Positions 18,193 to 42,535 of a DNA stretch of 64,000 nucleotides are shown piece after piece. Numbering within the stretch: the first letter of the stretch is position 1; every line of letters starts with the position of its first letter. This DNA comes from an uncultured Eubacteriales bacterium. GTDB lineage: Bacteria; Bacillota; Clostridia; Christensenellales; CAG-138. A model generated the notes under the pieces. The model searched no databases, had not been told where the DNA came from, and saw nothing but the letters and a program-made list of their open reading frames with translations. Where the stretch lies: NCBI GenBank assembly GCA_902797145.1, contig CADBRR010000020.1, forward strand, positions 13,725-77,724. Reading direction: 5' to 3'. Position numbers and translations under genes: made by a program.

Positions 18193-18320
18193 ACTAATAC
18201 TCCCTAAAAAACTTCGACATTTCATTTGATAATTTAATTTATTTTATCATTTTTACAATATAAAATCAATCAATTGCACAAATTACCAATTTATTATATA
18301 ATAAAAACTGAGGTGAATTT

Positions 18321-23488: not shown

Positions 23489-24034
23489 ATGATAGAAAAA
23501 ATAAGGAAGCAGGCACAAGATGTAGTATGTGAGTTGTTTTCAAACATACCCGATATAAGAAAAGGGCAAATTCTTGTAGTTGGTTGTTCAACGAGCGAGA
23601 TAATGGGAAAGTGCATCGGAACAGGTTCAAGCGAAGAAGCGGCGCAGGCAGTTATGGATGCGATACTTCCCAAGGTAAAGGAATACGGATTATATCTTGC
23701 AGTTCAATGCTGTGAGCATTTAAACAGAGTTCTTGTAGTAGAGCGTGAGTGTATGGAAAAATTCGGATTCACTCAGGTTTGCGTTAAACCGCAGCTCCAC
23801 GCAGGCGGAGCATTTGCAGTGGAAGCTACAAAACGCTTTGACGATTATGTTATGGTAGAGGATATTCAGGGCAAAGCGGATATGGGCATTGATATAGGCG
23901 GTGCGTTCATCGGAATGCATATGCACCCGGTTGTAGTTCCTATCCACGCAAACAACAGATATATTGGCGAGGCTTATGTTATGATGGCACGAACAAGACC
24001 AAAATACGTAGGCGGACCACGAGCTGCTTATTAA
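23489..24034 (+). CDS. TIGR01440/DUF436 (UPF0340) family protein
   Basis: 181 aa; GQILVVGCSTSEI...LAVQCCEHLNR is characteristic of the family. GGGAGA RBS; TTGAAA-17-TATACT promoter at 23393. Confidence 0.85.
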   Translation: MIEKIRKQAQDVVCELFSNIPDIRKGQILVVGCSTSEIMGKCIGTGSSEEAAQAVMDAILPKVKEYGLYLAVQCCEHLNRVLVVERECMEKFGFTQVCVKPQLHAGGAFAVEATKRFDDYVMVEDIQGKADMGIDIGGAFIGMHMHPVVVPIHANNRYIGEAYVMMARTRPKYVGGPRAAY

Positions 24035-24126: not shown

Positions 24127-24375
24127 ATCATATGTCGGGTCTGTGGTTGAAAGTCGATGCCAGTCGCAGGCGAAGCGATCCACGTAAGCAGATATTAAAA
24201 AAATAAATATCTATCCTATCTGTGAGCATGGTGCGGTTTAGATGTAAGTCCGTCCGCCTTATGGCGAGAGGAGTAGTAGTGGGGACGAAATAAGTTATGA
24301 GCGAACCTCCCTGACGGCGAGTGTGGGGTCAAAGACCAGGTCAGCCGACATTGATAAATTGATAATGAAAAAAAT
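24127..24375 (+). ncRNA. Unclassified structured small RNA (~250-280 nt including the terminator)
   Basis: Bounded by the consensus promoter and a terminator. It is GC-richer than the flanking sequence. A closing helix pairs GTCGG(24134-) with CCGAC(-24350). Internal hairpins include gtcgc-aggcgaa-gcgat, agatatt-A-rich loop-aatatct and cgcc-ttat-ggcg. There is no RBS-preceded ORF. Confidence 0.6.
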
Positions 24376-24421: not shown

Positions 24422-25426
24422 TTAATTTTTAAAGCTCCATTCAACAACTCTTTCCTTAAGCCTTTTATAAATATCCGTTGTTGCTTCGTGGTTATGTATT
24501 GTCTTTACAGCTTCTGCAAAGAGAGGAGCTGCTGAGATAATCTTAATCTTATCTGAAGCTTCTATTTCGGGGCAGTAAACAGTATCAGTCGATACGAGCA
24601 TCTTAATCGGGCTTTCGTCAATCTTCTTTACGCCTTTTTCACCAAGAACAACGTGTGATAAGAATGCGTAAATATCTTTTGCGCCCTGTTCTTTAAGTCC
24701 ATGGGTTACATCAACGAGTGTGCCGCCTGAGATTGTGAAGTCATCAATTACGAGGCAGTTCTTGCCCTTAACATCACCGATAATTCCGAGAACCTTTGCA
24801 TTTTCATCGTGACCTGTTCTTACTTTATCGCCAATAGCCACTTCGCAGCCAAGAATGTTTGCAAGCGACCTTGCACGCTTTGCGCTGCCTGCATCAGGTG
24901 AAACAACTACGAGGTTATCATCAACTATTCCAATATGCTTTGCATATTCTGCGAGCAATTCCCTGCCATGGATATGGTCGAGCGGTTTTTTGAAGAAGCC
25001 CTGAATCTGATCTGCGTGCAAATCCATTGTAATAACTCTATCTGCGCCTTCAAGTTCGATACATTCTGCGCAAACCCTTGCACGGATTGATGTTCTCGGT
25101 TCGTCCTTCTTATCGCCCTTTGCATAGCTGAAATAAGGAATGATTACCGTTACAGATGCTGCACTTGCACGCTTGAACGCATCAATCCAGAAAAGAAGCT
25201 CTGTAAACTCGTTATTAGGTTTTTTACCGATAGTCTGTACAATATAAACATCCTGATTACGAACGCATTCATCAACACGAACGAAAGTGTTGCCTTCTGA
25301 AAAGTTTATAACTGTCGATTTACCGAGCTGAACTCCAAGATATTCGCACATCTTTGTTGCAAATGCAAGGCTTGAACTACCTGCATAGATTTTGATTTCA
25401 CCATTTACATCTGTCATGATAATCAC
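24422..25426 (-). CDS. prs: Ribose-phosphate pyrophosphokinase
   Basis: 334 aa with the DLHADQIQGFF and VIDDFTISGGTL PRPP motifs. TTGATA-17-TATAAT promoter at 25481-25453. Confidence 0.93.
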   Translation of the reverse strand: MIIMTDVNGEIKIYAGSSSLAFATKMCEYLGVQLGKSTVINFSEGNTFVRVDECVRNQDVYIVQTIGKKPNNEFTELLFWIDAFKRASAASVTVIIPYFSYAKGDKKDEPRTSIRARVCAECIELEGADRVITMDLHADQIQGFFKKPLDHIHGRELLAEYAKHIGIVDDNLVVVSPDAGSAKRARSLANILGCEVAIGDKVRTGHDENAKVLGIIGDVKGKNCLVIDDFTISGGTLVDVTHGLKEQGAKDIYAFLSHVVLGEKGVKKIDESPIKMLVSTDTVYCPEIEASDKIKIISAAPLFAEAVKTIHNHEATTDIYKRLKERVVEWSFKN

Positions 25427-25581: not shown

Positions 25582-26322
25582 TTATGCTTCAAGAAGTCCG
25601 AACTTTGTCTTGACTCTATCGAGCTTATTAAGCAACGGATTAGTAAGCAGCGCAAGGAAAATAATCGTTGCAACTGCATGGATAATATTATAAATAACAC
25701 CCGATGCGTACATTGCGAGCAACGCTTCCCACGTTATCGTCTGCGAGAACATAAAAAGCGATGCTGTATCCATAATAACACCATATATTATAAATGTTGA
25801 TAGTCCTCCGAAAATACATATCGAAATTAGATTCCTTTTAAGCATTCCCTTTTTATAGAGAACACCTGCCAAGAACCCGATAATTCCGAACGAGAACATC
25901 TGCCACGGAGTCCACGGTCCTTGACCGAAGAAGAAGTTAGAAATAAATCCAGCGCAAGCGCCCACTATAAAACCCGACTCTCCGCCGAACGCAATTCCCG
26001 AAATAATAACGATAGCCACAACAGGCTTAAACTGCGGCAGCATATAGAATGCGCCTCTGCCTGCAACCGCAAGCGCAATCATAACCGCAAGGATTACAAG
26101 TTCCCTCGCCTGAGGTCGCCTCGACTCGAATTTAAGCACGAAAGGAACTGCGCTAAGTATTATAATTCCGATACTTATAATATAATACTGCCTATCTTTC
26201 ATAAGCAATATTCCTGCTGCGATAAGCGCAGGTATGAAAATCAATATTATAATCGCTGCAAGAACAGTTCGTTTGCCGAGTTTTGTATCCTCTGTTATAG
26301 ACCTTGTCTTTGTTTCCTGCAT
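25582..26322 (-). CDS. ECF transporter substrate-specific (S) component, likely corrinoid-specific by context
   Basis: 246 aa with about 6 TM helices. It is the last gene of the riboswitch operon and overlaps the ATPase gene by 28 nt. Substrate is inferred from the riboswitch only. Confidence 0.75.
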   Translation of the reverse strand: MQETKTRSITEDTKLGKRTVLAAIIILIFIPALIAAGILLMKDRQYYIISIGIIILSAVPFVLKFESRRPQARELVILAVMIALAVAGRGAFYMLPQFKPVVAIVIISGIAFGGESGFIVGACAGFISNFFFGQGPWTPWQMFSFGIIGFLAGVLYKKGMLKRNLISICIFGGLSTFIIYGVIMDTASLFMFSQTITWEALLAMYASGVIYNIIHAVATIIFLALLTNPLLNKLDRVKTKFGLLEA

Positions 26323-27935
26323 AGTGCAACTACCTCCTCGGTAAGAACTGCGTTTTCAAATACGCTCCTTGCAATTCTATTTGCGGCTGTCGTGTAGAAA
26401 TGATTCTTTGCAAAGAACGTACGAGGTTCGTTTTCGCTTATTATTGTTCCGTCAAAGAACAGACCGCATCTATCCGCATACTTTGCTGCAAACTCTACAT
26501 CGTGCGAAACCATAATTATCGAAATTCCCTTTGAAGTCATATTTTTAAGCATTGAACCGAACTTTTCTTTAAACGATGCGTCCATACCCTTTGTAGGTTC
26601 ATCAAGCAGCAATATTTCAGGTTCTGTAAGCAAAAGCTTTGCAATAGCAGTCCTCTGCTGTTCGCCACCGCTCAAATCAAACGGATGTGACCCCAGCAAT
26701 TCACGAATGTTCATAAGCTCAATTATATCTTTAAGCTTTTTCTCATCATTCGTTATCTCTTTTAAATCTTCAAGAACAGTATTTTTTACAAACAGCGTTC
26801 GTGGGTCTTGACAGAGTGCGCCAATCTTATAGTCCCTTGCTTGGAAACGCTTTTGTACTTTTCCGTTTATCTTTATTTTGCCTCTATACGGGGTATTCAA
26901 ACCGCTTATAATTGAAAGTGTCGTACTCTTGCCTGTACCATTACCTCCGACTAAGCAAAATATTTCGCCCTTATATGCTTTGAGCGACACGCCCTTTAAT
27001 ATATCGTTGCCCTGCTTTTCATATCTGAAAAAACATTCGTCAAGTTCAAGTACGGGTTCGGTATTTACAGCGTTATTTTCCTTGCTCTCAAGTTTTTCGC
27101 CTTTAAGATTCAAAGAGTTTATAAAATTTCTTCCGTCACGAACTGTCAGGGGACAATCGCATGACTTGTTCGTTTCTATCAGTCTAAACATTCTTGCAGA
27201 TGCCGGCAAGGATTTAAATACATCTTCTTCGATATTGATTTTCTTTGAAACCTCTTGTGGCGTATCAAAAAGCTCTATCTTGCCGTTTTTCATAACAACT
27301 GTTCTATCGGCAATACAGAAAGCTTCTTCAAGCCTGTGTTCAGTCATAATGACAGTAACTCCAAGCTCCGTATTTATTTTTTTTACTGTATTTAAAAACT
27401 CGCTTGCGGCAATAGGGTCAAGCTGACTTGTAGGCTCGTCAAGAATAAGAATTTGAGGATTCATAGCCATTATTGAAGCGAGGTTTAAAAGCTGTTTCTG
27501 ACCGCCTGAAAGCTCCGTAACCGATTTATAAAACCAGTTCTGTATTCCGAAATAGCTTGCCATTTCGCCAACACGAAGGCGCATTGTCGTCTGATCATAG
27601 CCAAGGCTTTCAAGCCCGAATGCCAGTTCGTGCCACACCTTATCCGTAACTATCTGGTCGTCTGGATGCTGCATTACAAAGCCAATATTAGATGCCTGTT
27701 CCCTATCTGAATATTCGCCGAGTGGTTTATCGTTTATAAACACTTGACCTGTTCTCTCTCCATATGGAGTTAATACGCTTTTGAAATGCCTTAAAAGCGT
27801 ACTTTTCCCGCAACCTGAATTACCGCATATAAGCATAAATTCACCATCACGAACGTCAAGATTTATATTTTCGAGCGCATTTTTATCTGATTTAGGATAT
27901 CTGAATGTCAGATTTTCGATTCTAAGCGTCGCCAT
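26295..27935 (-). CDS. ECF transporter ATPase, fused tandem A-A' domains
   Basis: 546 aa with two ABC cassettes: GNSGCGKST/SGGQKQ/ILDEPTS and GGNGTGKST/SGGEQQR/LLDEPTKG. Confidence 0.92.
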   Translation of the reverse strand: MATLRIENLTFRYPKSDKNALENINLDVRDGEFMLICGNSGCGKSTLLRHFKSVLTPYGERTGQVFINDKPLGEYSDREQASNIGFVMQHPDDQIVTDKVWHELAFGLESLGYDQTTMRLRVGEMASYFGIQNWFYKSVTELSGGQKQLLNLASIMAMNPQILILDEPTSQLDPIAASEFLNTVKKINTELGVTVIMTEHRLEEAFCIADRTVVMKNGKIELFDTPQEVSKKINIEEDVFKSLPASARMFRLIETNKSCDCPLTVRDGRNFINSLNLKGEKLESKENNAVNTEPVLELDECFFRYEKQGNDILKGVSLKAYKGEIFCLVGGNGTGKSTTLSIISGLNTPYRGKIKINGKVQKRFQARDYKIGALCQDPRTLFVKNTVLEDLKEITNDEKKLKDIIELMNIRELLGSHPFDLSGGEQQRTAIAKLLLTEPEILLLDEPTKGMDASFKEKFGSMLKNMTSKGISIIMVSHDVEFAAKYADRCGLFFDGTIISENEPRTFFAKNHFYTTAANRIARSVFENAVLTEEVVALCRKQRQGL

Positions 27936-28810
27936 GTTATGTCCTCCATTATATTGAGTATCATGGGCAAATTACAAAACAGCAAAAATGCCAAGTAGCC
28001 CAATATTGATAACGCACCCTCTGCGTTCATTCTTATTGACGGATAATATCTTACATATATTTTTCCACTAATTATACTTGCAGCAAAAATCAATGCAGCA
28101 ATAACGAATATGAGCAGTACCATTTTATCCCTCTTATCAAACTTATATAAAGAATATGCTGTTCTGCCTTTAAGTCCATATCCTCTGCTTTTCATTGAAT
28201 CCGCTGTCACAACTGCATTTTCAAGCGCCCATGTAATAGTTATTGAAAGCACTCGAACACCAGCTATGAGCCTTTTCATAATGTTTCCGTCTTTAACGCT
28301 CCTGCCTATGCTTTCCTGTGCCTTTGAAACTTCCTTTATCTGATGCGAAAATTTAGGCACAAACCTCAATGCCATAGACAATAACAACGACAAGGCAGGT
28401 ATTATCCTGCCAAATAAATATATAAATTTATCCGATGTCATTATATGATTATAGCATGAAAACCACACTATAACGCTGCCGAACATTCCCGAAGCGGCAA
28501 CCCCATATAATACTGCTTCAAGCGTAATAGGATTTCCATTTGATAAATAAAACAGCGTTGTAACACCGGCGTGATTAAACAGCGGATTCATAACCGCCGT
28601 AATAATCATAAGCGGCAAAACTCCAAACAGTTGGAGCTTTACTGCCTTTGCGCCTTTTAAATATATCGCATACACCATTGCTGATATAAGTGATGTCGCA
28701 AGCACTATCGGGTGCATCATAAACATTGTTATAAACAACACCCATACAAAATACAGCATTTCTACTGACGGATGAAGCGTTGAAAACGTATCTCGTTTTT
28801 TCATCTGCAA
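27908..28810 (-). CDS. ECF transporter transmembrane (T) component, CbiQ/EcfT family
   Basis: 300 aa, multi-pass, with an ARGxxxR-type coupling-helix region (MKSRGYGLKGR). It sits between the lipoprotein and ATPase genes. Confidence 0.85.
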   Translation of the reverse strand: MQMKKRDTFSTLHPSVEMLYFVWVLFITMFMMHPIVLATSLISAMVYAIYLKGAKAVKLQLFGVLPLMIITAVMNPLFNHAGVTTLFYLSNGNPITLEAVLYGVAASGMFGSVIVWFSCYNHIMTSDKFIYLFGRIIPALSLLLSMALRFVPKFSHQIKEVSKAQESIGRSVKDGNIMKRLIAGVRVLSITITWALENAVVTADSMKSRGYGLKGRTAYSLYKFDKRDKMVLLIFVIAALIFAASIISGKIYVRYYPSIRMNAEGALSILGYLAFLLFCNLPMILNIMEDITWRRLESKI

Positions 28811-28828: not shown

Positions 28829-29977
28829 TTATTCACCTGCTATCCATCCGCCGCCTACATCACGGCCTAAATCACAAGTATATCTCCATTCGCAGACATC
28901 GCCATCCTGAAGAATATATCTTGAACAGCCATAATTTGGATACCAGCCGTTTACCCTGAACATCCAACCCGAAAGCTGACCACAATCAAACTCATAAAGA
29001 TTGCCAATTCCCTCAATATATGCGCTATCATATGCAGGTGTCCACGATGCTTCAAGATGAATATTGTTTTCACGGCAAACCCTCTGCAATACATCAAATA
29101 CTGATTCGCCTGCGCTGAACTCAACTGTTACAGCCTTTAATATAACACCATCTTTAGGAAGTATATCGAGTTTTTCAGAGCTTAAATCTCCAAGATTATT
29201 AAAAATTGTTGAACATTCGATTGAGAATGTACAATGCCATTTTTTTGACTCATCAACCTTTTGATCTTCGGGATTTACAGGCTCCTGTTTTCCGCTCGGT
29301 ACGGGATCTGTTTGATACTTATCCTGTTCATTTCTCGTTCCATCAGAAATTTTAACGCTGCCTGCTTCGCCAAGCTTCGTTGTTGAACCTGAAAGATATT
29401 CGTCCTGCTCATTAGTGTTCTGAGGGTCGATATCGCCTTGATTTTCAGGATTATTGTTATAATCAACAACAGCTTCTTTATGCTCGTCACCCTTTACGAT
29501 ATATTCCTTAATCCCCTGTTTGATTGAGAAATTTATGATTGACGGAGTACCTGTCGTTATTGATGCGCCGCAAAGCGAGTTATAATTTACATCAAATACT
29601 GTTGCAGTAAGTGCTTCCCAGCTTTCAGGAACATATACTGAAAGGACTGTATTAAAATCAACATCTCCATTTAAAGTTACCTTAAAGCTTTCGTTTTCAT
29701 AAAGCTCAACGATAACGGACATATCCGTATCCTTTGCATCGCTAATATCTGAACCGAATACTGTCCATTCATATTTTATTCCATTCTTATCCGTACCTGT
29801 AAGCGTAAGAACGGAATTATCATTCTTTATTTTTGAAAAAGTGCTTTTTGAAACTATACCGTTTTCGGGTATTTCAACCTTGCCCGAAAAAACAGTATCA
29901 TTAGCGGCAGTCGAACAGCCTACAGCCATTACAGCCATAAGCAGCGACAACAAAATTATAAATGCACGTTTAATCAT
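28829..29977 (-). CDS. Lipoprotein with a C-terminal DUF4430 (transcobalamin-like beta) domain
   Basis: Lipobox LMAVMAVG-C. A low-complexity linker rich in D/E/Q/P/N. C-terminal FDVLQRV...YIEGIGNLYEFDCGQLSGWMFRVNGWYPNYGCSRYILQDGDVCEWRYTCDLGRDVGG. Confidence 0.85.
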   Translation of the reverse strand: MIKRAFIILLSLLMAVMAVGCSTAANDTVFSGKVEIPENGIVSKSTFSKIKNDNSVLTLTGTDKNGIKYEWTVFGSDISDAKDTDMSVIVELYENESFKVTLNGDVDFNTVLSVYVPESWEALTATVFDVNYNSLCGASITTGTPSIINFSIKQGIKEYIVKGDEHKEAVVDYNNNPENQGDIDPQNTNEQDEYLSGSTTKLGEAGSVKISDGTRNEQDKYQTDPVPSGKQEPVNPEDQKVDESKKWHCTFSIECSTIFNNLGDLSSEKLDILPKDGVILKAVTVEFSAGESVFDVLQRVCRENNIHLEASWTPAYDSAYIEGIGNLYEFDCGQLSGWMFRVNGWYPNYGCSRYILQDGDVCEWRYTCDLGRDVGGGWIAGE

Positions 29978-30650
29978 CAGCTATTGTCCTCCCATCAACG
30001 GTATTAAGAGTATTTTTCGTCATAGCAAGGCTCTGCGAGCTATCCGATGCTGCAAGAACCGCATCTTCAATTACGAAATTCATTACATCGCCTTTAATTA
30101 CACTGCCACGAAGTTTGAATTTGAGCCTTACAAGGATATTTCTATCCTCTTTACTAAATCCTTCGCTCGTAAAAGCATACTTGCCTGCTGTTTGGTCGAG
30201 GTACATAATATTTATAAGCCCGATATCGTTTGAACGCTCATTATTTACGCCCCAATTCGGCAAATCGAAGCCATTATCAGCAAGCACAAACACGTTACCT
30301 TCCTCTATGCCCATAAACTCAAGCCTTGATTTATCAAATGAAATCGAAAAGCTTGCAGCAGGGTACAATACGCCCTCAGGCATATCTGAAAGAGGTATAT
30401 CTATAGTAAATTCCCTATCGCCCGATATACTTACTTTTGAAGGTACATCAAGTTTAATTGTAGGTTTGGCGTAGTTTTTCCTCAGTATAAAAAACAGCGT
30501 TACACCCAATGCGATAAGCAATAATATAAGCAAAATTATAAGAAGAATTCTTTTTTTCTTTTTCTTTTCTTCCTGTTCTTGTTCTGTTATTTTAATATCA
30601 TTTATCTGTTCCATAATCTTGAATAAATGCGTTTTAACGCAACTTCCCAT
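29970..30650 (-). CDS. N-terminally TM-anchored cohesin-like protein
   Basis: 226 aa. A Lys-rich stretch precedes one TM helix (ILLIILLILLLIALGVTLFFIL). Then a ~150-aa beta-domain follows with a cohesin-like pattern (FTIDIPLSDMP..ASFSISFDKSRLEFMGIEEG...LVRLKFKLRG). The start codon is uncertain (30650 or 30614). Confidence 0.65.
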   Translation of the reverse strand: MGSCVKTHLFKIMEQINDIKITEQEQEEKKKKKRILLIILLILLLIALGVTLFFILRKNYAKPTIKLDVPSKVSISGDREFTIDIPLSDMPEGVLYPAASFSISFDKSRLEFMGIEEGNVFVLADNGFDLPNWGVNNERSNDIGLINIMYLDQTAGKYAFTSEGFSKEDRNILVRLKFKLRGSVIKGDVMNFVIEDAVLAASDSSQSLAMTKNTLNTVDGRTIADD

Positions 30651-30766: not shown

Positions 30767-33547
30767 TTAGTTTGCGCTGAATCTTGCACCGTATGTTACA
30801 ACGATGAATTCTGTGCCGTTTACGAAGTTATCAACGATACCAAGTGCATCATATGTGTTGATTCTTGAATCGCCGTTTACGTTCATTGCGAGCATTGTAT
30901 CGTCAGTTGTAACTTCTGTCTTTCTGAGCCATGCGTTTACTGTATCAAGTGCATCCTGTGCATTGATAACGCCGTCAGCGTTTACATCACCGAATGTGAT
31001 TGAAGCAGGTGTACCTGCAACCATTGTATAGTTAGCAACCTTGTTCATTTCGTCCATTGATGTTTCAGCTGCAACCATTGTTACGTATGTAGCAACGCCT
31101 GTCTTATCTGAAAGCTGCTTGTTGTAACGGAGAACTGTACCGTCTGTGTATGTGATTGTTGTTGCGACTTCGAGTTCTGTTACGAGTACTGCAACTGCCT
31201 TCTTGTCAGCAGGAATGATGTCGATGCCATCGCCTGTGTAGAGTTCATATGCGAATACTGCAACTTCCTTCTTGAGTTCTGATGTTGCCTTTGATGAATC
31301 TGTCATTGTGTTGATTACATGAATCATCTTAGGATCCTGTGAATCGCTGCCGAGCTTCAATGACATACCTGTGATTGCGAAATCAACTGTCTTAGCTTCG
31401 AGAACTTCGTCCATTGTGAATGTTACTGTGAACAAGTCAGCCGGGAATTCTGTAGCGTTTACAACAACGTTTTCATATGTTTCAAGGTTTGCATATACAA
31501 CACGGAGTTTGCCTGTTGCTTCTTCAACATAGTAATATACGCTGCCGCCTGTGAGGTTATTTGTAGCCTGAACGTCTGTTACTCTGAGTCCTTCAGGAAC
31601 TGTAACTATCATATCAACGAGCTTATAATCCTTTGTGCTGTCCCAACCTGTAAGACCGATCTGTGCATTGAATGTTGAACCAGCCTTGTTTGTTACGATA
31701 GCGGGAGTGTTGATATATGATTCAATCTTGAGGAAACCGTTTTCATCGTATTCGGGATTTACGGGTTCTTCTGTCATAACGTCTGTCATATCATAAAGGC
31801 GTGTCTTACCATCGAGCATTCTCTGGTATGAAACAAGTGTGTAGAGAGCCTGTTCTGTAGCCATGCCATCAACACTACCTGTAGCAACATGCTTGAAAGC
31901 ACCGTTATCATAGAAGCTCATGAGTGCATCAACGAGTGAAATATTGTTCTTTATAAATCTTTCATCTTCCTGAGGATCAATGCCCAATGCAACGAGTGCA
32001 CAGATTGTCTGTGAAATGCTTTCTGAGCTTGTAGAACCCCATGATGTGTAGCCACCTTCATCGTTCTGGTTAGCTGAAAGCCATACGAGTGCTTCGTCTA
32101 CTGCTGTCTTTACTGCTTCGTTTGTTGTGTAGTAAGGAGCAAGTGCCTGGATTGTCATTGATGTAATATCAACATCAGCCTTTGTGCCTGAAAGTCCCCA
32201 GCCACCTGTTGCACACTTCTTTTCAACAATGTAGTTGATGAATTCGTTTCTCAAGTTAGCATCTGTTGTTTCATAGTTTCTTGAATCAAGTGCGATGAGT
32301 GCATAAACAGGACCATTGAGACCCTGCCATGATACATCTGACAATACATTCAAAGGAGCTACGATGTTCTTGCCAGCGATAGCTGTTGCATCCTTGTTAA
32401 TTGATGACAAACCGATAATAACTCTTGAGTTATCTGTAAGCTTTCTTGAATGGAGCTTACCTGCTTCTGTAGCGTGTTCGTTTACATATTCAACAACCTT
32501 TGTGTAGTAATCTGTGAAAATAGCATTGTCAAGGTCATACTTTTCTGATCTTGCAAGACCAAGAACTGCCCATTCACCACCTGTAGCACCAACGCTCAAG
32601 CCGTTAGTTTCTGCAAGATTATAAACATGTTCAAGTGTTGCATTGAGTGTATCTGTAATGTCAACTCTCTGATGTTCAGCGCCACCCTGTGCTGCTTCTA
32701 TCAACTGCTGTGCATCAATATCAATCTGGTTAGTGAGCAAATCAATGTCAGCCTGTTCTGTATTAAGAACCTTACAAGCTTCAACATATGCATCAATTGC
32801 TGTTGTAAAGTCATCGTTTGTGCCATAGAGTTCATTGCTCTTATACTTTACGATTGCCTGATAAAGAGCTGATCTGTTGCCTGCTGCATACAAAGGTTCC
32901 ATACCCCAAACCTGATCTGTACCAAGGTCTGCGCCATATCCATAGACTGAGAACTGCCAACGGATAACAGGAATGTTATTAACTACAGGGTAATCTGCGG
33001 GCTGATCGGGCTCGTTTACGAGGAGCCATGCGCCTGCGCCCTTGTTGATCATGTAATTGTTTACTGTTACCATCCAGCCTGCAGAGCTTGTGTAGTCAAA
33101 TTCACCAAGGTTAGCGTCTGAATTTGTTTCGCTTTCAATAAGTTCAACAAATGTTTCGTTTTCCATAAGGAAATCCGGGAATTCAGCAGGAACTGAAGGA
33201 TCATCTATATTGTCGATCGTGCCCATATAGAATGAATCTGAAGCCCAACCGTCACCTGTTGATTCAACAGTAATTCCGAGGCTATCAAATACATAGCCTG
33301 TTGCCATAGCTGCTGTGATAGCTTCTTTTTCAACATTGTACTTATTCATAATATCCTGATAAGCAACAAATGTAGGTTCGATAAAGAAGCCTTTACCGAT
33401 TGAAAGCCCTTCAAGACTTACGATACAACCTTCTTCAGCATCCTTTGTTGTAACAACAACATTCTTTGCTGCGAATGCGGTTGCAGACACTACTTGCAAT
33501 ACCATGAGCATTACAAGCAAAAATGCCACAAATTTTGTCTTCTTCAT
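30767..33547 (-). CDS. Secreted 926-aa protein: DUF4430 domain + prenyltransferase-like alpha/alpha-toroid repeats + cohesin-like module + C-terminal dockerin
   Basis: Signal peptide MKKTKFVAFLLVMLMVLQVVSATAFA. DUF4430-like SSAGWMVTVNNYMINKGAGAWLLVNEPD. Toroid repeats GGWGLSGTKADVDITSMTIQAL and NDEGGYTSWGSTSSESISQTICALVALG. Cohesin-like FNAQIGLTGW...LRVVYANL...FTVTFTM. Dockerin GDVNADGVINAQDAL...NVNGDSRINTYDAL at ~30815-30991. Confidence 0.85.
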   Translation of the reverse strand: MKKTKFVAFLLVMLMVLQVVSATAFAAKNVVVTTKDAEEGCIVSLEGLSIGKGFFIEPTFVAYQDIMNKYNVEKEAITAAMATGYVFDSLGITVESTGDGWASDSFYMGTIDNIDDPSVPAEFPDFLMENETFVELIESETNSDANLGEFDYTSSAGWMVTVNNYMINKGAGAWLLVNEPDQPADYPVVNNIPVIRWQFSVYGYGADLGTDQVWGMEPLYAAGNRSALYQAIVKYKSNELYGTNDDFTTAIDAYVEACKVLNTEQADIDLLTNQIDIDAQQLIEAAQGGAEHQRVDITDTLNATLEHVYNLAETNGLSVGATGGEWAVLGLARSEKYDLDNAIFTDYYTKVVEYVNEHATEAGKLHSRKLTDNSRVIIGLSSINKDATAIAGKNIVAPLNVLSDVSWQGLNGPVYALIALDSRNYETTDANLRNEFINYIVEKKCATGGWGLSGTKADVDITSMTIQALAPYYTTNEAVKTAVDEALVWLSANQNDEGGYTSWGSTSSESISQTICALVALGIDPQEDERFIKNNISLVDALMSFYDNGAFKHVATGSVDGMATEQALYTLVSYQRMLDGKTRLYDMTDVMTEEPVNPEYDENGFLKIESYINTPAIVTNKAGSTFNAQIGLTGWDSTKDYKLVDMIVTVPEGLRVTDVQATNNLTGGSVYYYVEEATGKLRVVYANLETYENVVVNATEFPADLFTVTFTMDEVLEAKTVDFAITGMSLKLGSDSQDPKMIHVINTMTDSSKATSELKKEVAVFAYELYTGDGIDIIPADKKAVAVLVTELEVATTITYTDGTVLRYNKQLSDKTGVATYVTMVAAETSMDEMNKVANYTMVAGTPASITFGDVNADGVINAQDALDTVNAWLRKTEVTTDDTMLAMNVNGDSRINTYDALGIVDNFVNGTEFIVVTYGARFSAN

Positions 33548-33689: not shown

Positions 33690-33885
33690 ACGATTACAAT
33701 CAACAATGCGGCAGGTCTTCTGACTTATGGCCTCTTTGATATTCGCAGGGTAACTTACTCATATCACTTCCTACCAGCTCCGACTTCCCAAACAAATTAT
33801 GATTCGTTCAGTGTTAAATTGAGCTTTCGTTGCCACTTACAGCAGCGGGACTGTTACGGACTCTCACCGTATTCCCTTTTAATTT
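33690..33885 (-). promoter_or_regulatory. Cobalamin (AdoCbl-type) riboswitch
   Basis: Minus strand reads AAGGGAAUACGGUGAGAGUCCGUAACAGUCCCGCUGCUGUAA ... CACUG...GGGAAG ... B12 box AAGUCAGAAGACCUGCCGC (plus-strand 33708-33725). This matches the conserved core as I know it. Confidence 0.9.
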
Positions 33886-33921
33886 GATATATATCAATTT
33901 GTTTGTATTGATTTATATCAA
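33884..33921. repeat. Two tandem 14-bp palindromes TTGAT-N4-ATCAA between the promoter and the riboswitch
   Basis: 33884-33897 ttgatatatatcaa is a perfect palindrome. 33908-33921 ttgatttatatcaa has one deviation. Their centres are 24 bp apart. Confidence 0.6.
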
Positions 33922-33941
33922 AACCGTATCGTTACATAATA

Positions 33942-33970
33942 AGTATATCATTACCTCAAACCATTGTCAA
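33942..33970 (-). promoter_or_regulatory. Promoter of the riboswitch operon (TTGACA-17-TATACT)
   Basis: Minus strand reads gtgTTGACAatggtttgaggtaatgaTATACTt. The predicted TSS is near 33935, ~50 nt upstream of the riboswitch core. Confidence 0.65.
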
Positions 33971-34053: not shown

Positions 34054-34130
34054 TGGTAGCGGCAATCTGATTCGAACAGATGACACTCCGGGTATGAACC
34101 GAATGCTCTAGCCAGCTGAGCTATGCCGCC
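34054..34130 (-). tRNA. tRNA-Met (CAT), elongator type
   Basis: GGCGGCATAGCTCAGCTGGCTAGAGCATTCGGTTCATACCCGGAGTGTCATCTGTTCGAATCAGATTGCCGCTACCA folds as a cloverleaf. The anticodon loop is TTCATAC and CCA is encoded. Confidence 0.9.
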
Positions 34131-34146
34131 ATATTATTAACTTAAA

Positions 34147-34224
<78 letters not shown>

Positions 34225-34351
34225 TCGTCAACTCAAAACGCACTTTCTGAATGCAATATTTATTGTACCACGGCAAAACAAATAAGTCAAGTCTTTTTTT
34301 TAAAATTTTTTATTGATTTTTTATTTTATTTAGTTTATAATATGTTTGTAT

Positions 34352-34427
34352 GCTGATGTAGCTCAGTAGGTAGAGCACTTCATTGGTAATGAAGAGGTAG
34401 GCAGTTCGAATCTGCTCATCAGCTCCA
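34352..34427 (+). tRNA. tRNA-Thr (GGT)
   Basis: GCTGATGTAGCTCAGTAGGTAGAGCACTTCATTGGTAATGAAGAGGTAGGCAGTTCGAATCTGCTCATCAGCTCCA. TTGATT-17-TATAAT promoter at 34313-34341. Confidence 0.92.
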
Positions 34428-39421: not shown

Positions 39422-42400
39422 TTAGCAAACCTTTACGCCAAGCGTTACGCTTTCGCCATTGATATCCCATTCCTTAACGAAACCGTCTGCGCCCTTATTC
39501 ATCTCGTTTGCGAGCGTATCAGCCATAATATCGCCCTTATACTTTTCGATAATAGCGTCTATCTTTTCGCTGCCGTTATAGCTTATAGCGATATGGTCAG
39601 TTACCTCAAATCCTGCATCCTTACGCATTGTCTGTATCTTAGATACAAGTTCACGAACGAAGCCTTCTTCGATAAGTTCATCTGTCAATGTTGTATTGAG
39701 TACAACGCTCAAATCCCTATCGCTTTCAGCAACAAAACCATCACGCTGCATAGTTTCAACAAGCACATCTTCGCTTGAAAGTGAAACGTGTGTTCCCTCG
39801 ATATCAAACTCGTAATTTTCGCCTGCTTTATGCTTTGCAACTACTTCGTTACCGATATTTTCGCCCTGCAAATATGCGTTTATCTTCGGCAAAACCTTAC
39901 CGTAACGTGGTCCCAATGTTTTAAGCTGTGGCTTTACCCTATATGCGATGAATCCCGACGCATCTTCCATAAACTTAACGCACTTAACATTAAGTTCATC
40001 AGCGATTATTGATATGAACATTTCGGGAAGATTTCCGCCCTGAACGAACATTTCGCCGATAGGCTGACGGTTCTTGATATTTGCAGTATTTCTTGCGCTT
40101 CTGCCAAGAACTACTATCCTCAATACTTCGTCCATATTCTTTTCAAGTTCCTCGTCAATATATGAGTCATCTGCAACGGGAAAGTCACAAAGGTGAACGC
40201 TTTCGGGAGCTTTTTCATCAACGCTCTTTACTATATTCTGATAGATTTCCTCTGTTATGAACGGAACAAACGGTGCTGCGAGCTTTACAAATGTTGAAAG
40301 AACAGTATAAAGTGTCATATATGCAGCTTCTTTATCGTCCGTCATTTCGCTGCCCCAATATCTTTCACGGCAACGGCGAACATACCAATTTGACAAATCA
40401 TCAATAAATCTCTGCAATTCCCTGCCACCCTCAGTTATCTTGAGGTCATTGAGGTCGCTGTCAATTTCCTTTACAAGGCTATTAAGTCTTGAAAGAACCC
40501 ACTTATCCATTGCGGAGAGGTTTTCCTTTTTAAGGCTATGTTCTGTCGGATTGAACTTATCAATTTCAGCATACAGTACATAGAACGCATATGTGTTCCA
40601 CAAAGTACCCATAAACTTACGCTGTGATTCTGATACAGCAGTATCCGAGAACCTTGACGGCAGCCATGGCATTGAATTTGTATAGAAATACCACCTTACA
40701 GCATCTGCGCCCTGCTTATCAAGAACGCTCCACGGGTCAACAACGTTGCCCTTATGCTTTGACATTTTCTGTCCGTCCTTATCCTGAACAAGACCCAATA
40801 CGATACAGTTAAGGAATGCAGGATCATCGAACAAGCAAGCAGCAATTGCGCTCAGAGTATAGAACCAACCACGTGTCTGGTCAACAGCTTCGCTGATATA
40901 GTTTGCAGGGAATCTCTTTTCAAACTCTTCCTTATTTTCAAAGGGATAATGCCACTGTGCAAACGGCATTGAGCCTGAATCGAACCAACAGTCAATAACT
41001 ACCGGTTCCCTCTTCATAGTGCCGCCACATTCAGGGCACTTGAACGTAATCGGATCGAGGAACGGTTTATGAAGCTCAGTATTTACCGGTGCGCCTGTCA
41101 ACTCGTGAAGCTCTTCACGGCTTCCCATAACGTGGATATGACCGCATTCTGAGCACATCCATACAGGCAATGGAGTTCCCCAATATCGTTCTCTTGAAAT
41201 ACCCCAATCTATTACATTTTCAAGGAAGTTGCCCATTCTGCCATCTCTGATTGATTCAGGCAACCAATTTATCTTTCTATTATTTTCAAGCAGTTTATCA
41301 CGAACTGCTGTCATCCTTATGAACCAGCTTTCTCTTGCATAGTAGATAAGCGGAGTATCACATCTCCAGCAGAACGGATAGCTATGTTCAAATTCAAGTG
41401 TCCTAAACAGCTTACCGCTTGCTTTGAGTGTCTTTATAATTTCCTTATCTGCCTTTTTGCAGAACATACCGTCCCACGGTGTTCCGCCTGTCAAGCAACC
41501 CTTGCTGTCAACGAGCTGTACGAACGGCAAATCCCATTTTCTGCCAACTCTACCGTCATCTTCACCGAATGCAGGGGCGATATGAACGATACCTGAACCG
41601 TCTGTCAATGTTACATAATCATCCGATACGATTCTAAAACCTTTCTTGCCCTTATGATTTACCGGGAAGTCAAACAACGGTTCATATTCTATATTTTCAA
41701 GTTCTTTGCCCTTGAATTTTTCAATTATAACAGCATTTTCGCCAAGAACCTTTTCAACGAGTGCTTCAGCCATAATAAGCTTTTCGCCCTCAAATTCTAC
41801 CTTAACATAATCTTCATCAGCATTTACGCAAAGCGCAACGTTTGACGGAAGCGTCCAAGGCGTAGTAGTCCATGCAAGGAATGATGCATCGCCATTTACC
41901 ATTGGGAATTTAGCAAATACAGATGTTTCCTTAACATTCTTATAACCCTGTGCTACTTCGTGTGATGAAAGCGCCGTTCCGCATCTCGGACAATAAGGTA
42001 CTATCTTATGACCTTTATAGAGTAATCCCTTTTCATAAATCTTTTTAAGTGCCCACCATTCTGACTCGATATAGTTATCATCGTATGTAACGTACGGATT
42101 TTCCATATCTGCCCAATAGCCTACACGGTCGCTCATGCGTTCCCACTCGCTCTTATATTTCCATACGGATTCTTTGCATTTCTTGATAAAATCTTCAACG
42201 CCGTATGCTTCGATCTGTTCTTTGCCATCAAGACCAAGCATCTTTTCAACTTCAAGCTCAACCGGCAAACCATGTGTATCCCAGCCTGCTTTTCTCAATA
42301 CATCGTAACCCTTCATTGTTCGGTAGCGAGGTATAATATCCTTCATAGTTCTTGTGAGGATATGTCCGATATGCGGCTTTCCGTTAGCCGTTGGTGGGCC

Positions 42401-42535
42401 ATCGAAGAATGTGAAAGGTTCTTTGCCCTTTCTCCATTCCATGCTCTTTTCAAAAATCTTGTTTTCTTTCCAGAAAGCTAAAACTTCCTGCTCTCTTGAT
42501 ACGAAATCAAGTGTCGTACTAACTTTCTTGTACAT
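39422..42535 (-). CDS. ileS: Isoleucine--tRNA ligase, type 2 (long, eukaryote-like C-terminus)
   Basis: 1037 aa with HIGH-type PHIGH and KMSKS (KMSKHKGN). Preceded by an Ile-specific T-box. Confidence 0.95.
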   Translation of the reverse strand: MYKKVSTTLDFVSREQEVLAFWKENKIFEKSMEWRKGKEPFTFFDGPPTANGKPHIGHILTRTMKDIIPRYRTMKGYDVLRKAGWDTHGLPVELEVEKMLGLDGKEQIEAYGVEDFIKKCKESVWKYKSEWERMSDRVGYWADMENPYVTYDDNYIESEWWALKKIYEKGLLYKGHKIVPYCPRCGTALSSHEVAQGYKNVKETSVFAKFPMVNGDASFLAWTTTPWTLPSNVALCVNADEDYVKVEFEGEKLIMAEALVEKVLGENAVIIEKFKGKELENIEYEPLFDFPVNHKGKKGFRIVSDDYVTLTDGSGIVHIAPAFGEDDGRVGRKWDLPFVQLVDSKGCLTGGTPWDGMFCKKADKEIIKTLKASGKLFRTLEFEHSYPFCWRCDTPLIYYARESWFIRMTAVRDKLLENNRKINWLPESIRDGRMGNFLENVIDWGISRERYWGTPLPVWMCSECGHIHVMGSREELHELTGAPVNTELHKPFLDPITFKCPECGGTMKREPVVIDCWFDSGSMPFAQWHYPFENKEEFEKRFPANYISEAVDQTRGWFYTLSAIAACLFDDPAFLNCIVLGLVQDKDGQKMSKHKGNVVDPWSVLDKQGADAVRWYFYTNSMPWLPSRFSDTAVSESQRKFMGTLWNTYAFYVLYAEIDKFNPTEHSLKKENLSAMDKWVLSRLNSLVKEIDSDLNDLKITEGGRELQRFIDDLSNWYVRRCRERYWGSEMTDDKEAAYMTLYTVLSTFVKLAAPFVPFITEEIYQNIVKSVDEKAPESVHLCDFPVADDSYIDEELEKNMDEVLRIVVLGRSARNTANIKNRQPIGEMFVQGGNLPEMFISIIADELNVKCVKFMEDASGFIAYRVKPQLKTLGPRYGKVLPKINAYLQGENIGNEVVAKHKAGENYEFDIEGTHVSLSSEDVLVETMQRDGFVAESDRDLSVVLNTTLTDELIEEGFVRELVSKIQTMRKDAGFEVTDHIAISYNGSEKIDAIIEKYKGDIMADTLANEMNKGADGFVKEWDINGESVTLGVKVC

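What the first reader, a model, noticed from the sequence alone, without database searches (positions are those of the whole stretch)
28829..29977. Second DUF4430 module as a lipoprotein: hint of a distal-to-proximal ligand relay
The operon contains two DUF4430 domains in different topological contexts. One is far from the membrane on the dockerin-tethered protein. The other is lipid-anchored through a long D/E/Q/P-rich linker next to the ECF genes. By analogy with Gram-positive haem relay systems (Isd NEAT proteins), this layout would allow hand-over across the wall. The lipoprotein's N-terminal ~170 aa match nothing I recognise.
Basis: inference. Interest (0 to 1): 0.55.

Follow-up and report, generated by a model that had tools for sequence, protein, structure and literature searches.

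The report
Membrane-tethered B12-binding lipoprotein of ECF importer
The gene encodes a lipid-anchored protein carrying a transcobalamin-type vitamin B12-binding domain; with a larger B12-binding protein apparently held at the membrane by a cohesin-dockerin clip, it most likely feeds a B12-riboswitch-controlled ECF importer, a locally new elaboration of a gene cluster type first described by computer analysis in 2007.

Summary
Window 29977..28829 (minus strand) encodes a 382-aa lipoprotein with a C-terminal DUF4430 domain, the transcobalamin-like beta-grasp (SLBB) domain. It is the third gene of a six-gene operon behind a cobalamin riboswitch. The order is a 926-aa SLBB + alpha/alpha-toroid + dockerin protein, a 226-aa membrane-anchored cohesin, the lipoprotein, EcfT, fused EcfA-A', and a CbrT-like S component.

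The order is conserved: 54 of 60 related genomes with enough upstream sequence, and 55 of 56 with enough downstream sequence.

The distal-to-proximal relay idea is only partly supported.
- The dockerin's likely partner is the membrane cohesin encoded between the two genes, so both binders are membrane-held.
- The big protein's own SLBB is its least conserved folded domain and is absent in some variants.
- The "linker" contains a strongly conserved proline-rich motif.

The constant elements across lineages are a membrane-tethered SLBB, usually a surface-anchored toroid protein, and the ECF genes.

My best reading is that the lipoprotein is the tethered beta-half of a split transcobalamin-like corrinoid trap and passes the ligand to the ECF S component.

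Operons with paired SLBB proteins were described in 2007, and a homologous Lactobacillus sakei cluster was assigned to haem uptake. I rate this a new variant of a known kind. Interest is moderate.

The parts
33942..33970 (-). Promoter-like site (TTGACA-17-TATACT with TG), directly upstream of the riboswitch
   Evidence: 11 of 12 matches. This is a consensus match only.
33693..33943 (-). Cobalamin riboswitch aptamer heading the operon
   Evidence: RF00174, 101.6 bits (gathering score 31.5), E=2.9e-24. A riboswitch lies upstream of the homologous operon in 6 of 7 loci, and in L027.
30767..33547 (-). 926-aa secreted 'alpha' protein: signal peptide, divergent SLBB/DUF4430, helical linker, alpha/alpha toroid, cohesin-like beta-sandwich, Ig-like domain, dockerin
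   Evidence: (AF2 mean pLDDT 82.8)
32903..33430 (-). Divergent SLBB/DUF4430 module of the 926-aa protein (aa 40-215)
   Evidence: hhalign probability 95%, E=2e-8; 12 of 31 orthologues hit PF14478; median 18% identity, the least conserved folded domain
31808..32656 (-). Alpha/alpha toroid (aa 298-580), prenyltransferase / terpene-cyclase-like fold
   Evidence: 86 positions are at least 95% conserved in 51 orthologues; 30% identical to the L. curvatus LPXTG toroid protein (E=2e-21)
31343..31750 (-). Cohesin-like beta-sandwich inside the 926-aa protein (aa 600-735); partner unknown
   Evidence: Foldseek match to 2vo8 cohesin, TM-score 0.80 (normalised to the target), rmsd 3.0 A
30818..31000 (-). 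Type I dockerin (aa 850-910)
   Evidence: Dockerin_1, 28 bits against cut-off 22.9; 31 of 31 orthologues; median 70% identity
29970..30650 (-). 226-aa membrane-anchored single-cohesin protein (K-rich N-terminus, TM helix at about aa 36-58, cohesin 76-190); presumed docking site for the 926-aa protein
   Evidence: Cohesin E=5e-4, below the cut-off in this copy; 18 of 18 orthologues hit Cohesin, best 6.8e-10; co-occurs with the dockerin in 54 loci, both absent in 6
28829..29977 (-). The finding: 382-aa lipoprotein with N-terminal beta-sandwich, spacer, conserved motif and C-terminal SLBB/DUF4430 domain
29483..29890 (-). Lineage-specific N-terminal beta-sandwich domain (aa 30-165)
   Evidence: pLDDT above 90; no Pfam match; only 68 cluster representatives among 1.84 billion proteins; the matches of 330 aa or more are N-terminal, and the two scanned carry DUF4430; only weak CBM/Ig-like fold matches
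29360..29482 (-). Variable acidic spacer (aa 166-206), predicted disordered
   Evidence: pLDDT below 50; 8-88 aa in orthologues, mean column conservation 0.30
29258..29359 (-). Conserved proline-rich motif SDGxxxEQDKYxTDPVPEGKPxPVEPE (within aa 207-240)
   Evidence: mean conservation 0.74, many invariant positions; pLDDT 70-80
28853..29245 (-). SLBB/DUF4430 (transcobalamin beta-domain-like) module with six conserved cysteines (aa 245-375)
   Evidence: mean conservation 0.85; Cys249, 255, 301, 332, 351 and 368 conserved at 0.93 or more
27908..28810 (-). EcfT (transmembrane coupling component)
   Evidence: EcfT 5d3m_D, E=1.3e-10. No Pfam hit.
26295..27935 (-). Fused EcfA-EcfA' ATPase (two ABC domains)
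   Evidence: TIGR04520 at 346.6 bits, TIGR04521 at 332.2 bits
25582..26322 (-). ECF S component related to the vitamin B12-specific CbrT, with an extra N-terminal TM segment
   Evidence: 6fnp_A CbrT, E=2.7e-10; ECF-ribofla_trS / ECF_trnsprt; 36% identical to the L. curvatus S component

Best explanation
The lipoprotein is the constant, membrane-tethered beta-subunit (SLBB/DUF4430, equivalent to the transcobalamin beta-domain) of a corrinoid capture apparatus. That apparatus serves a dedicated, cobalamin-riboswitch-repressed ECF transporter with a CbrT-like S component.

Proposed steps:
1. When B12 is scarce the riboswitch lets the six genes be expressed. The regulatory logic is established for the riboswitch class and inferred here.
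2. The 926-aa protein is secreted and clipped by its dockerin onto the 226-aa membrane cohesin encoded next to it. This places its alpha/alpha toroid on a stalk of roughly two beta-sandwich domains above the membrane. This step is inferred from strict co-occurrence and high conservation.
3. The lipoprotein is lipid-anchored through Cys21. It carries a membrane-proximal beta-sandwich and presents its highly conserved SLBB domain, preceded by the conserved Pro-rich motif, on a variable disordered spacer.
4. The SLBB closes over a corrinoid held in the toroid, as the beta-domain does in transcobalamin, or takes the corrinoid from it. It then delivers the ligand to the S component for ATP-driven import. 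This step is inferred and not shown.

Both proteins are membrane-held, so any hand-over is a short-range transfer near the membrane surface rather than a passage from the outside of the wall inwards.
For: **Corrinoid context.**
- A cobalamin riboswitch of 101.6 bits heads the operon. A riboswitch was also found upstream in 6 of 7 homologous loci and in L027.
- The S component's best solved relative is the B12-specific CbrT.
- EcfT and the fused EcfA-A' are identified.

**SLBB identity.**
- Pfam DUF4430 at E=1e-15.
- The best fold matches are haptocorrin and intrinsic factor.

**Operon conservation.**
- 54 of 60 loci carry toroid, dockerin and cohesin upstream. 55 of 56 carry EcfT, EcfA-A' and S downstream.

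**Conservation ranking.**
- Mean column conservation: lipoprotein SLBB 0.85 and motif 0.74; dockerin 0.84, toroid 0.73, big protein's own SLBB 0.45.

**Alpha-proteins without any SLBB still pair with a tethered SLBB and the same ECF genes in the same order.**
- L027: toroid + dockerin, 626 aa.
- L. curvatus: LPXTG-anchored toroid protein, then a TM-anchored SLBB on a ~120-aa linker, then EcfT, EcfA-A' and S. Homology: toroid E=2e-21, SLBB E=2e-24, S component E=5e-44.

**Literature.**
- Burroughs et al. 2007 (PMC1796856) predicted that SLBB and toroid cooperate in B12 binding. They also noted that such proteins sit in operons with a second SLBB paralogue and CbiO/CbiQ-like genes.
- Deleting the homologous L. 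sakei lsa1836-1840 cluster impairs tetrapyrrole (haem) uptake.
Against: - No binding, transfer or cohesin-dockerin interaction has been measured.
- I could not inspect model coordinates or run a multimer prediction, so an SLBB-toroid interface is not shown.
- The big protein has its own SLBB, which could be the true partner of its toroid as in other bacterial SLBB-toroid fusions.
- Some relatives keep the lipoprotein and ECF genes with no toroid gene nearby. In L053 the riboswitch sits directly before the lipoprotein. In L012, L014 and L077 (translation and Pfam checked in L012) a beta-propeller + SLH protein takes the toroid protein's place. The lipoprotein can therefore presumably work without an operon-encoded toroid.
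- In Collinsella the large partner has four SLBBs and a propeller, with no toroid detected.
- By sequence the toroid resembles terpene cyclases, not the transcobalamin alpha-domain.
- Spacer length shows no clear relation to the partner's anchoring.
Confidence: 0.5

Rival explanations
1. First reader's model. A like-to-like relay runs from the DUF4430 of a wall-distal dockerin protein to the DUF4430 of the membrane lipoprotein, as haem passes between NEAT domains in the Isd system.
For: Two SLBB modules are present. In Collinsella a 4xSLBB protein is paired with a small membrane-tethered SLBB and no toroid was detected. Burroughs 2007 noted paired SLBB paralogues.
Against: The dockerin's probable partner is a membrane cohesin, so the protein is not distal. 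The big protein's SLBB is poorly conserved (18% median identity). It is absent in L027 and L. curvatus alpha-proteins. No operon protein matched the Pfam NEAT family.
Confidence: 0.15
2. Two independent binders. The lipoprotein alone is the substrate-binding protein that loads the ECF S component. The cohesin-docked 926-aa protein only hoards corrinoids at the cell surface, for competition or storage, with no direct hand-over.
For: Lipoprotein and ECF occur without a toroid gene in L053 and L012-type loci. The big protein is a complete SLBB + toroid unit like transcobalamin.
Against: Synteny of all six genes is very strict. Alpha-proteins lacking an SLBB (L027, L. curvatus) could hardly bind tightly alone if binding needs both halves. 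A high-affinity hoarding protein with no release route would starve the transporter.
Confidence: 0.2
3. The substrate is not a corrinoid but haem or another tetrapyrrole, as claimed for the homologous L. sakei lsa1836-1840 system.
For: The L. sakei deletion mutant is impaired in haem uptake. The L. curvatus homologue has no cobalamin riboswitch.
Against: The window operon and most tested relatives are headed by a high-scoring cobalamin riboswitch. The S component is closest to CbrT. The SLBB fold matches B12 carriers best.
Confidence: 0.05
4. The lipoprotein's SLBB processes the ligand rather than carrying it. Possible roles are decyanation, base-off conversion or redox chemistry through its six conserved cysteines. 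Alternatively it gates the S component.
For: Six cysteines are conserved (0.93 or more) in 81 orthologues. They are absent from the big protein's SLBB and, apart from C351, from the L. curvatus SLBB. BtuM uses a cysteine as cobalt ligand for decyanation (paper listed, PMC6072759).
Against: The cysteines may simply form three disulfides. No catalytic motif is recognised. The L. curvatus and Collinsella tethered SLBBs lack them.
Confidence: 0.08

Closest known systems
Bacterial transcobalamin-like SLBB proteins in operons with CbiO/CbiQ-like genes (Burroughs, Balaji, Iyer & Aravind 2007, Biol Direct, PMC1796856)
   Same: Secreted or surface SLBB domains are fused to an alpha/alpha toroid in either order. 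[quoted passage not shown] The predicted role is scavenging of B12.
   Different: That work is purely computational. In the passages I searched it does not mention cohesin, dockerin or lipoprotein (0 occurrences each). It therefore does not describe the membrane cohesin, the lipoprotein's N-terminal beta-sandwich, the conserved Pro-rich motif or the Cys set. It proposes surface complexes, not a tethered-subunit mechanism.
[quoted passage not shown]
   Same: The five core genes come in the same order: alpha-toroid protein, beta (SLBB) protein, EcfT, EcfA-A', S component. The L. curvatus counterpart is homologous to the window proteins: toroid E=2e-21, SLBB E=2e-24, S component E=5e-44. The authors also propose that the alpha and beta proteins capture the ligand and pass it to the S component.
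   Different: That system was assigned to haem, and the L. curvatus homologue has no cobalamin riboswitch. Its alpha-protein is LPXTG wall-anchored and has no SLBB. Its beta-protein is TM-anchored with a ~120-aa Ser/Gln-rich linker, no N-terminal domain, no Pro-rich motif and a single Cys. I used L. curvatus as a proxy and did not compare the L. sakei genes themselves.
ECF-CbrT vitamin B12 transporter of Lactobacillus delbrueckii (Santos et al. 2018, eLife, PMC5997447; PDB 6fnp)
   Same: The S component is homologous to CbrT (E=2.7e-10), with EcfT and two ATPase domains. The substrates shown there are cobalamin and cobinamide.
   Different: ECF-CbrT shares its ECF module with other S components and works without extracytoplasmic binding proteins. 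Here the module is dedicated (group I), riboswitch-controlled, and accompanied by three conserved extracytoplasmic proteins. The S component also has an extra N-terminal TM segment.
Mammalian transcobalamin / intrinsic factor / haptocorrin
   Same: A beta-grasp domain and an alpha/alpha toroid together sandwich one corrinoid. The lipoprotein's C-domain gives haptocorrin and intrinsic factor as best fold matches.
   Different: The two halves are on separate proteins. The big protein additionally has the order beta then alpha. The toroid shows no sequence match to the Cobalamin_bind family. Anchoring is to a bacterial membrane.
Isd haem relay (NEAT-domain proteins to lipoprotein IsdE to an ABC permease) and Bacteroides BtuG/BtuB surface capture of B12 (PMC6143338)
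   Same: The functional logic matches: surface-exposed binders pass a tetrapyrrole to a membrane transporter, with a lipoprotein as the last extracytoplasmic carrier.
   Different: The domains are unrelated: no NEAT domain and no BtuG-type propeller in the window. The window system has no graded sortase anchoring. The transporter is ECF-type, not type II ABC or TonB-dependent.
Cellulosome/amylosome cohesin-dockerin assemblies
   Same: A type I dockerin and cohesin modules are present.
   Different: The cargo is a vitamin-binding protein, not a carbohydrate-active enzyme. The cohesin is a single-module membrane protein encoded inside the transporter operon. I found no paper linking cohesin-dockerin to B12 uptake in the searchable library.

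Membership tests
DUF4430 / transcobalamin-like SLBB clade (Pfam PF14478) | Sequence match to the family model above the curated threshold | tested here: met
   58.3 bits against cut-off 23.8, E=1e-15, aa 290-367
DUF4430 / transcobalamin-like SLBB clade (Pfam PF14478) | Beta-grasp fold like the beta-domain of transcobalamin, intrinsic factor and haptocorrin | tested here: met
   the best Foldseek PDB hits are 4kki (probability 0.99, E=5e-3), 2pmv (0.90) and 3u7z. Significance is modest because the domain's pLDDT is only about 60-80.
DUF4430 / transcobalamin-like SLBB clade (Pfam PF14478) | Binds a corrinoid | not testable with these tools
   Only context is available: a cobalamin riboswitch and a CbrT-like S component.
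Bacterial lipoprotein | Signal peptide ending in a lipobox with invariant Cys | tested here: met
   ...LMAVMAVG-C21.: Cys21 in 81 of 81 orthologues, lipobox-like pattern in 80 of 81. Lipidation itself is not testable.
ECF-type vitamin B12 transporter (ECF-CbrT-like) | S component homologous to CbrT, plus EcfT and two EcfA ATPase domains | tested here: met
   6fnp_A, E=2.7e-10; EcfT 5d3m_D, 1.3e-10; TIGR04520 and TIGR04521 above cut-off
ECF-type vitamin B12 transporter (ECF-CbrT-like) | Transports cobalamin or cobinamide | not testable with these tools
   Supported indirectly by the riboswitch.
Transcobalamin / intrinsic factor family proper (Pfam Cobalamin_bind alpha-domain followed by beta-domain in one chain) | Alpha-domain sequence match to Cobalamin_bind, with alpha-to-beta order in one polypeptide | tested here: not met
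   No Cobalamin_bind hit. PDB profile hits are terpene cyclases only. The order is beta then alpha in the 926-aa protein, and the beta-domain alone sits in the lipoprotein. Only the fold class (alpha/alpha toroid) agrees.
Isd-type NEAT relay | NEAT domains on sortase-anchored proteins at graded wall depth | tested here: not met
   No operon protein matched the Pfam NEAT family. Anchoring is by dockerin plus membrane cohesin and by lipid. Sortase signals occur only in variants L075 and L083.
Cohesin-dockerin pair | Dockerin and cohesin modules recognisable by sequence and fold | tested here: met
   Dockerin_1 at 28 bits against 22.9. The window cohesin scores 20.7 against 24.1, below the cut-off, but 18 of 18 orthologues hit Cohesin, best 6.8e-10.
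Cohesin-dockerin pair | The two modules bind each other | not testable with these tools
   Indirect support only: they co-occur in 54 loci and are both absent from 6, and the dockerin is the most conserved part of its protein.
Lsa1836-1840-type operon | Gene order alpha-toroid, beta-SLBB, EcfT, EcfA-A', S, with homologous products | tested here: met
   using the L. curvatus locus L083 as proxy for L. sakei. The window has the cohesin gene inserted between alpha and beta.

The most novel reading that the evidence does not exclude
A membrane-assembled corrinoid trap with two firsts: an ECF transporter that depends on extracytoplasmic binding proteins, and a cohesin-dockerin pair used for vitamin uptake. 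The alpha/alpha toroid protein is docked on an operon-encoded membrane cohesin. A lipid-tethered SLBB, guided by its conserved Pro-rich motif, completes a split transcobalamin around the corrinoid. It then swings the ligand onto the CbrT-like S component. The six conserved cysteines might take part in ligand chemistry or release.
Probability: 0.3. Interest if true: 0.7.

Novelty: new variant of a known kind. Interest (0 to 1): 0.5.

Why it matters
ECF transporters are usually described as working without separate substrate-binding proteins. How Gram-positive gut anaerobes compete for scarce corrinoids is far less understood than in Bacteroides (BtuG/BtuH) or E. coli (BtuBFCD).

This operon type is common in gut Clostridia. 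386 species-level genomes encode a relative of the lipoprotein, and most of the 80 loci I examined (Oscillospiraceae, Acutalibacteraceae, Ruminococcus, Faecousia) carry the whole six-gene operon.

It offers a defined six-protein system in which a split, bacterial version of transcobalamin could be tested for ligand capture and hand-over to an ECF S component. It would also extend cohesin-dockerin biology beyond polysaccharide degradation.

The conclusions here are comparative and structural predictions. No step of binding or transfer has been shown.

Tried and rejected
- **PDB sequence searches.** Searches with the lipoprotein and with its family profile found nothing.
- **Spacer versus stalk length.** I looked for covariation between lipoprotein spacer length and the alpha-protein's stalk length or anchoring. 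Alpha-protein length hardly varies. Spacers range from 20 to 101 aa within the cohesin-dockerin class. The SLH/propeller class has the shortest spacers and the sortase variant L075 a long Pro/Thr-rich one. No clear rule emerged.
- **Toroid versus transcobalamin alpha-domain.** Sequence-level tests for homology gave only terpene cyclases and prenyltransferases.
- **The two cohesins.** BLASTP between the 226-aa cohesin and the big protein's internal cohesin-like module shows no similarity.
- **Literature.** Searches for dockerin/cohesin together with cobalamin or prenyltransferase gave nothing relevant. Rodionov et al. 2009 could not be retrieved.
- **Organism.** Exact-sequence cluster look-ups gave no names. 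The closest genome-level relative is a 'Christensenellaceae bacterium' MAG at 61% identity for the lipoprotein.
- **Other SLBB or N-domain copies.** None was found elsewhere in the window.
Full report
**1. What is at the coordinates**

The interval 28829-29977 is an ORF on the minus strand. It encodes 382 aa beginning MIKRAFIILLSLLMAVMAVG-C21, a signal peptide with a lipobox.

Pfam DUF4430 matches aa 290-367 at E=1e-15, 58.3 bits against a cut-off of 23.8. NCBIfam gives nothing. PDB sequence searches with the protein and with a family profile also give nothing.

I built an AlphaFold2 model from a 32-sequence alignment (A1). It has mean pLDDT 70.8 and pTM 0.63 and shows four parts:
- a confident beta-sandwich at aa 30-165 (pLDDT above 90);
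- a disordered stretch at aa 166-206;
- a segment at aa 207-245 with pLDDT 70-80 but almost no secondary structure;
- an alpha/beta domain at aa 247-366.

The best Foldseek matches in the PDB are haptocorrin 4kki (probability 0.99), intrinsic factor 2pmv (0.90) and the DUF4430 crystal structure 3u7z. The N-domain attracts only weak CBM/Ig-like hits.

**2. The operon**

All genes are on the minus strand.

| Element | Coordinates | Identification |
|---|---|---|
| Promoter-like site | 33970..33942 | 11 of 12 consensus matches |
| Cobalamin riboswitch | 33943..33693 | 101.6 bits |
| 926-aa protein | 33547..30767 | SLBB + toroid + dockerin |
| 226-aa protein | 30650..29970 | membrane-anchored cohesin |
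| Lipoprotein | 29977..28829 | the finding |
| EcfT | 28810..27908 | PDB EcfT, 1.3e-10 |
| Fused EcfA-A' | 27935..26295 | TIGR04520 / TIGR04521 |
| S component | 26322..25582 | best solved relative CbrT 6fnp_A, 2.7e-10 |

Four of the five gene junctions either overlap (8, 28 and 28 nt) or leave an 18-nt gap; the junction between the 926-aa gene and the cohesin gene is a 116-nt gap. CbrT is the B12-specific S component described in PMC5997447.

**3. The 926-aa protein**

Its AF2 model has mean pLDDT 82.8. It resolves:
- a signal peptide;
- an alpha/beta domain (aa 40-215);
- helices (aa 225-290);
- an alpha/alpha toroid (aa 298-580);
- a cohesin-like sandwich (aa 600-735; 2vo8, TM-score 0.80);
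- an Ig-like domain (aa 740-845);
- a dockerin (aa 850-910).

In this copy the N-terminal domain scores below the Pfam DUF4430 threshold. Profile-profile alignment nevertheless maps the lipoprotein's DUF4430 onto aa 51-217 (probability 95%, E=2e-8). In addition, 12 of 31 orthologues hit PF14478, best 1.7e-10.

No further copy exists in the window.

**4. The 226-aa protein changes the geometry**

It has a Lys-rich N-terminus, one TM helix and, about 15 residues later, a cohesin. The window copy is just below the Pfam cut-off. All 18 orthologues tested hit Cohesin, best 6.8e-10.

Among 60 related loci with enough upstream sequence, cohesin and dockerin are both present in 54 and both absent in 6.

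The dockerin is the best conserved part of its protein. Median identity to the window is 70%, against 45% for the toroid and 18% for the N-terminal SLBB.

From this I infer that the big protein is clipped to this membrane cohesin. It is then not "far from the membrane" in the sense of wall-distal. Its binding head would still sit on a stalk of two beta-sandwich domains.

**5. Comparative anatomy of the lipoprotein**

The family is large: more than 6,495 homologues, most about 376 aa long and about 50% identical. 386 species-level genomes encode a relative.

In an alignment of 81 orthologues:

| Region | Residues | Mean column conservation | Note |
|---|---|---|---|
| Lipobox Cys | 21 | invariant | 81 of 81 |
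| N-domain | 30-165 | 0.59 | moderately conserved |
| Spacer | 166-206 | 0.30 | 8-88 aa in orthologues |
| Motif SDGxxxEQDKYxTDPVPEGKPxPVEPE | 207-240 | 0.74 | strongly conserved |
| SLBB domain | 245-375 | 0.85 | six Cys (249, 255, 301, 332, 351, 368) conserved at 0.93 or more |

The "long D/E/Q/P-rich linker" is therefore a short variable spacer followed by a conserved functional element of unknown partner.

An exhaustive search of 1.84 billion representatives with the N-domain found only 68 proteins. The matches of about 330 aa or more carry it at the N-terminus, and the two I scanned have a C-terminal DUF4430. There were also faint matches to Ig-repeat giants. The N-domain is a lineage-specific beta-sandwich confined to this family.

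**6. Variants that inform mechanism**

- **L053:** the riboswitch lies directly before the lipoprotein and ECF genes, with no big protein.
- **L012, L014, L077:** a different protein takes the big protein's place; in L012, the one translated, it is an 804-aa beta-propeller + 3xSLH protein.
- **L075:** the alpha-protein is 1,156 aa with an NPKTG sortase-type signal. There is no cohesin gene. The lipoprotein spacer is a 72-aa Pro/Thr-rich stretch.
- **L027:** the operon's alpha-protein is only toroid + dockerin (626 aa, no SLBB). A second riboswitch controls a separate SLBB + toroid protein.
- **Latilactobacillus curvatus (L083):** an LPXTG-anchored toroid protein without SLBB, then a TM-anchored SLBB on a ~120-aa Ser/Gln-rich linker, then EcfT, EcfA-A' and S. 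The order matches the window, and homology is clear: toroid E=2e-21, SLBB E=2e-24, S component E=5e-44. There is no cobalamin riboswitch.
- **Collinsella aerofaciens (L085):** a 1,264-aa 4xSLBB + propeller protein, followed by a small TM-anchored SLBB on a ~150-aa low-complexity linker.

The constant element is a membrane-tethered SLBB. The surface partner varies but is most often an alpha/alpha toroid protein. Its anchor is interchangeable:
- dockerin plus membrane cohesin, as here;
- a sortase signal, as in L075 and L083;
- SLH domains, in more distant homologues.

**7. Mechanism**

I favour the following steps.
1. Low B12 relieves riboswitch repression.
2. The toroid protein docks on the membrane cohesin.
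3. The lipid-tethered SLBB acts as the beta-half of a split transcobalamin. It closes over, or takes, the corrinoid held by the toroid.
4. It then presents the ligand to the CbrT-like S component for ATP-driven uptake.

What is shown:
- domain identities;
- riboswitch control elements;
- synteny;
- conservation ranking;
- existence of SLBB-less alpha-proteins.

What is inferred:
- cohesin-dockerin pairing;
- corrinoid binding;
- the alpha + beta interface;
- delivery to the S component.

I put confidence at about 0.5 for the mechanism as stated, and about 0.85 that the lipoprotein is part of a corrinoid uptake system.

The main rivals are:
- two independent binders with no hand-over;
- a non-corrinoid substrate;
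- a ligand-processing role for the Cys-rich SLBB.

**8. Relation to what is known**

Burroughs et al. 2007 (PMC1796856) defined the SLBB superfamily. They noted bacterial SLBB + toroid surface proteins, operons with a second SLBB paralogue and CbiO/CbiQ-like genes, the absence of B12 synthesis in the hosts, and a predicted role in B12 scavenging. The core observation is therefore not new.

Verplaetse et al. (10.1101/864751) studied the homologous L. sakei cluster. They proposed alpha + beta capture with hand-over to the S component, but for haem.

As far as the searchable literature shows, the following are new:
- the operon-encoded membrane cohesin with a dockerin-bearing toroid protein;
- the lipoprotein's family-specific N-domain;
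- the conserved Pro-rich motif;
- the conserved cysteine set.

Membership of the transcobalamin family proper is not met: there is no Cobalamin_bind match and the domain order differs. Membership of an Isd-type NEAT relay is not met. These resemblances are functional only.

**9. Verdict**

This is a real, widespread and well-conserved feature. I rate it a new variant of a known kind, of moderate interest. It gives a concrete, testable system for how an ECF transporter could use extracytoplasmic binding proteins to capture vitamin B12 in Gram-positive gut anaerobes.

Noticed in passing
window 24130-24353 (+): raiA RNA motif, 185.6 bits (gathering score 101.3). It lies between a 181-aa ORF (23489-24034, +) and the PRPP synthetase gene (25426..24422, -), just downstream of the operon.
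   Followed up: no
window 42590-42836 (-): T-box leader (112.7 bits) ahead of the isoleucyl-tRNA synthetase gene (42535..39422). Three tRNA genes lie at 34057-34424 between the riboswitch and the upstream murC-like gene.
   Followed up: no
window 15568-18225 (-): A second dockerin-bearing protein (885 aa; Big_2 + Dockerin_1, E=2.8e-6). It is a candidate ligand for the cohesin-like module inside the 926-aa protein, or for another scaffold.
   Followed up: partly
window 25582-26322 (-): The CbrT-like S component has a ~65-aa N-terminal extension with an extra hydrophobic helix compared with L. delbrueckii CbrT. The match to the L. curvatus S component reaches back to aa 38, against aa 68 for CbrT, so at least part of the extension is shared.
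   Followed up: partly
window 28853-29245 (-); lipoprotein aa 249, 255, 301, 332, 351, 368: Six cysteines are conserved (0.93 or more) in 81 orthologues. They are absent from the big protein's SLBB, and all but one are absent from the L. curvatus SLBB. They could form disulfides, a metal site or a cobalt ligand; this is unresolved.
   Followed up: partly
lipoprotein spacers in L054, L058, L046 and others: A recurring short motif, D-x-Y-L-S ... R-V/I-Y-S-D-G, occurs in the variable spacer. It is duplicated in orthologues with long spacers, which suggests expansion by repeat.
   Followed up: no
L053 11940-14624: An 894-aa ORF where EcfA-A' and the S component are normally separate. This could be a gene fusion or an assembly artefact.
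   Followed up: no
L027 174-361 and 7928-8132: Two cobalamin riboswitches in one locus. One heads the toroid-dockerin / cohesin / lipoprotein / ECF operon. The other heads a separate 857-aa SLBB + toroid protein downstream.
   Followed up: partly
L003 2544-2736 and 2815-3003: Tandem cobalamin riboswitch aptamers (84 and 72.6 bits) ahead of the closest homologous operon.
   Followed up: no
L012 7584-9998: In some relatives the riboswitch-controlled partner of the lipoprotein is an 804-aa PQQ-like beta-propeller + 3xSLH protein instead of the toroid protein. This recalls the propeller fold of Bacteroides BtuG, though that comparison is from memory and was not tested.
   Followed up: partly
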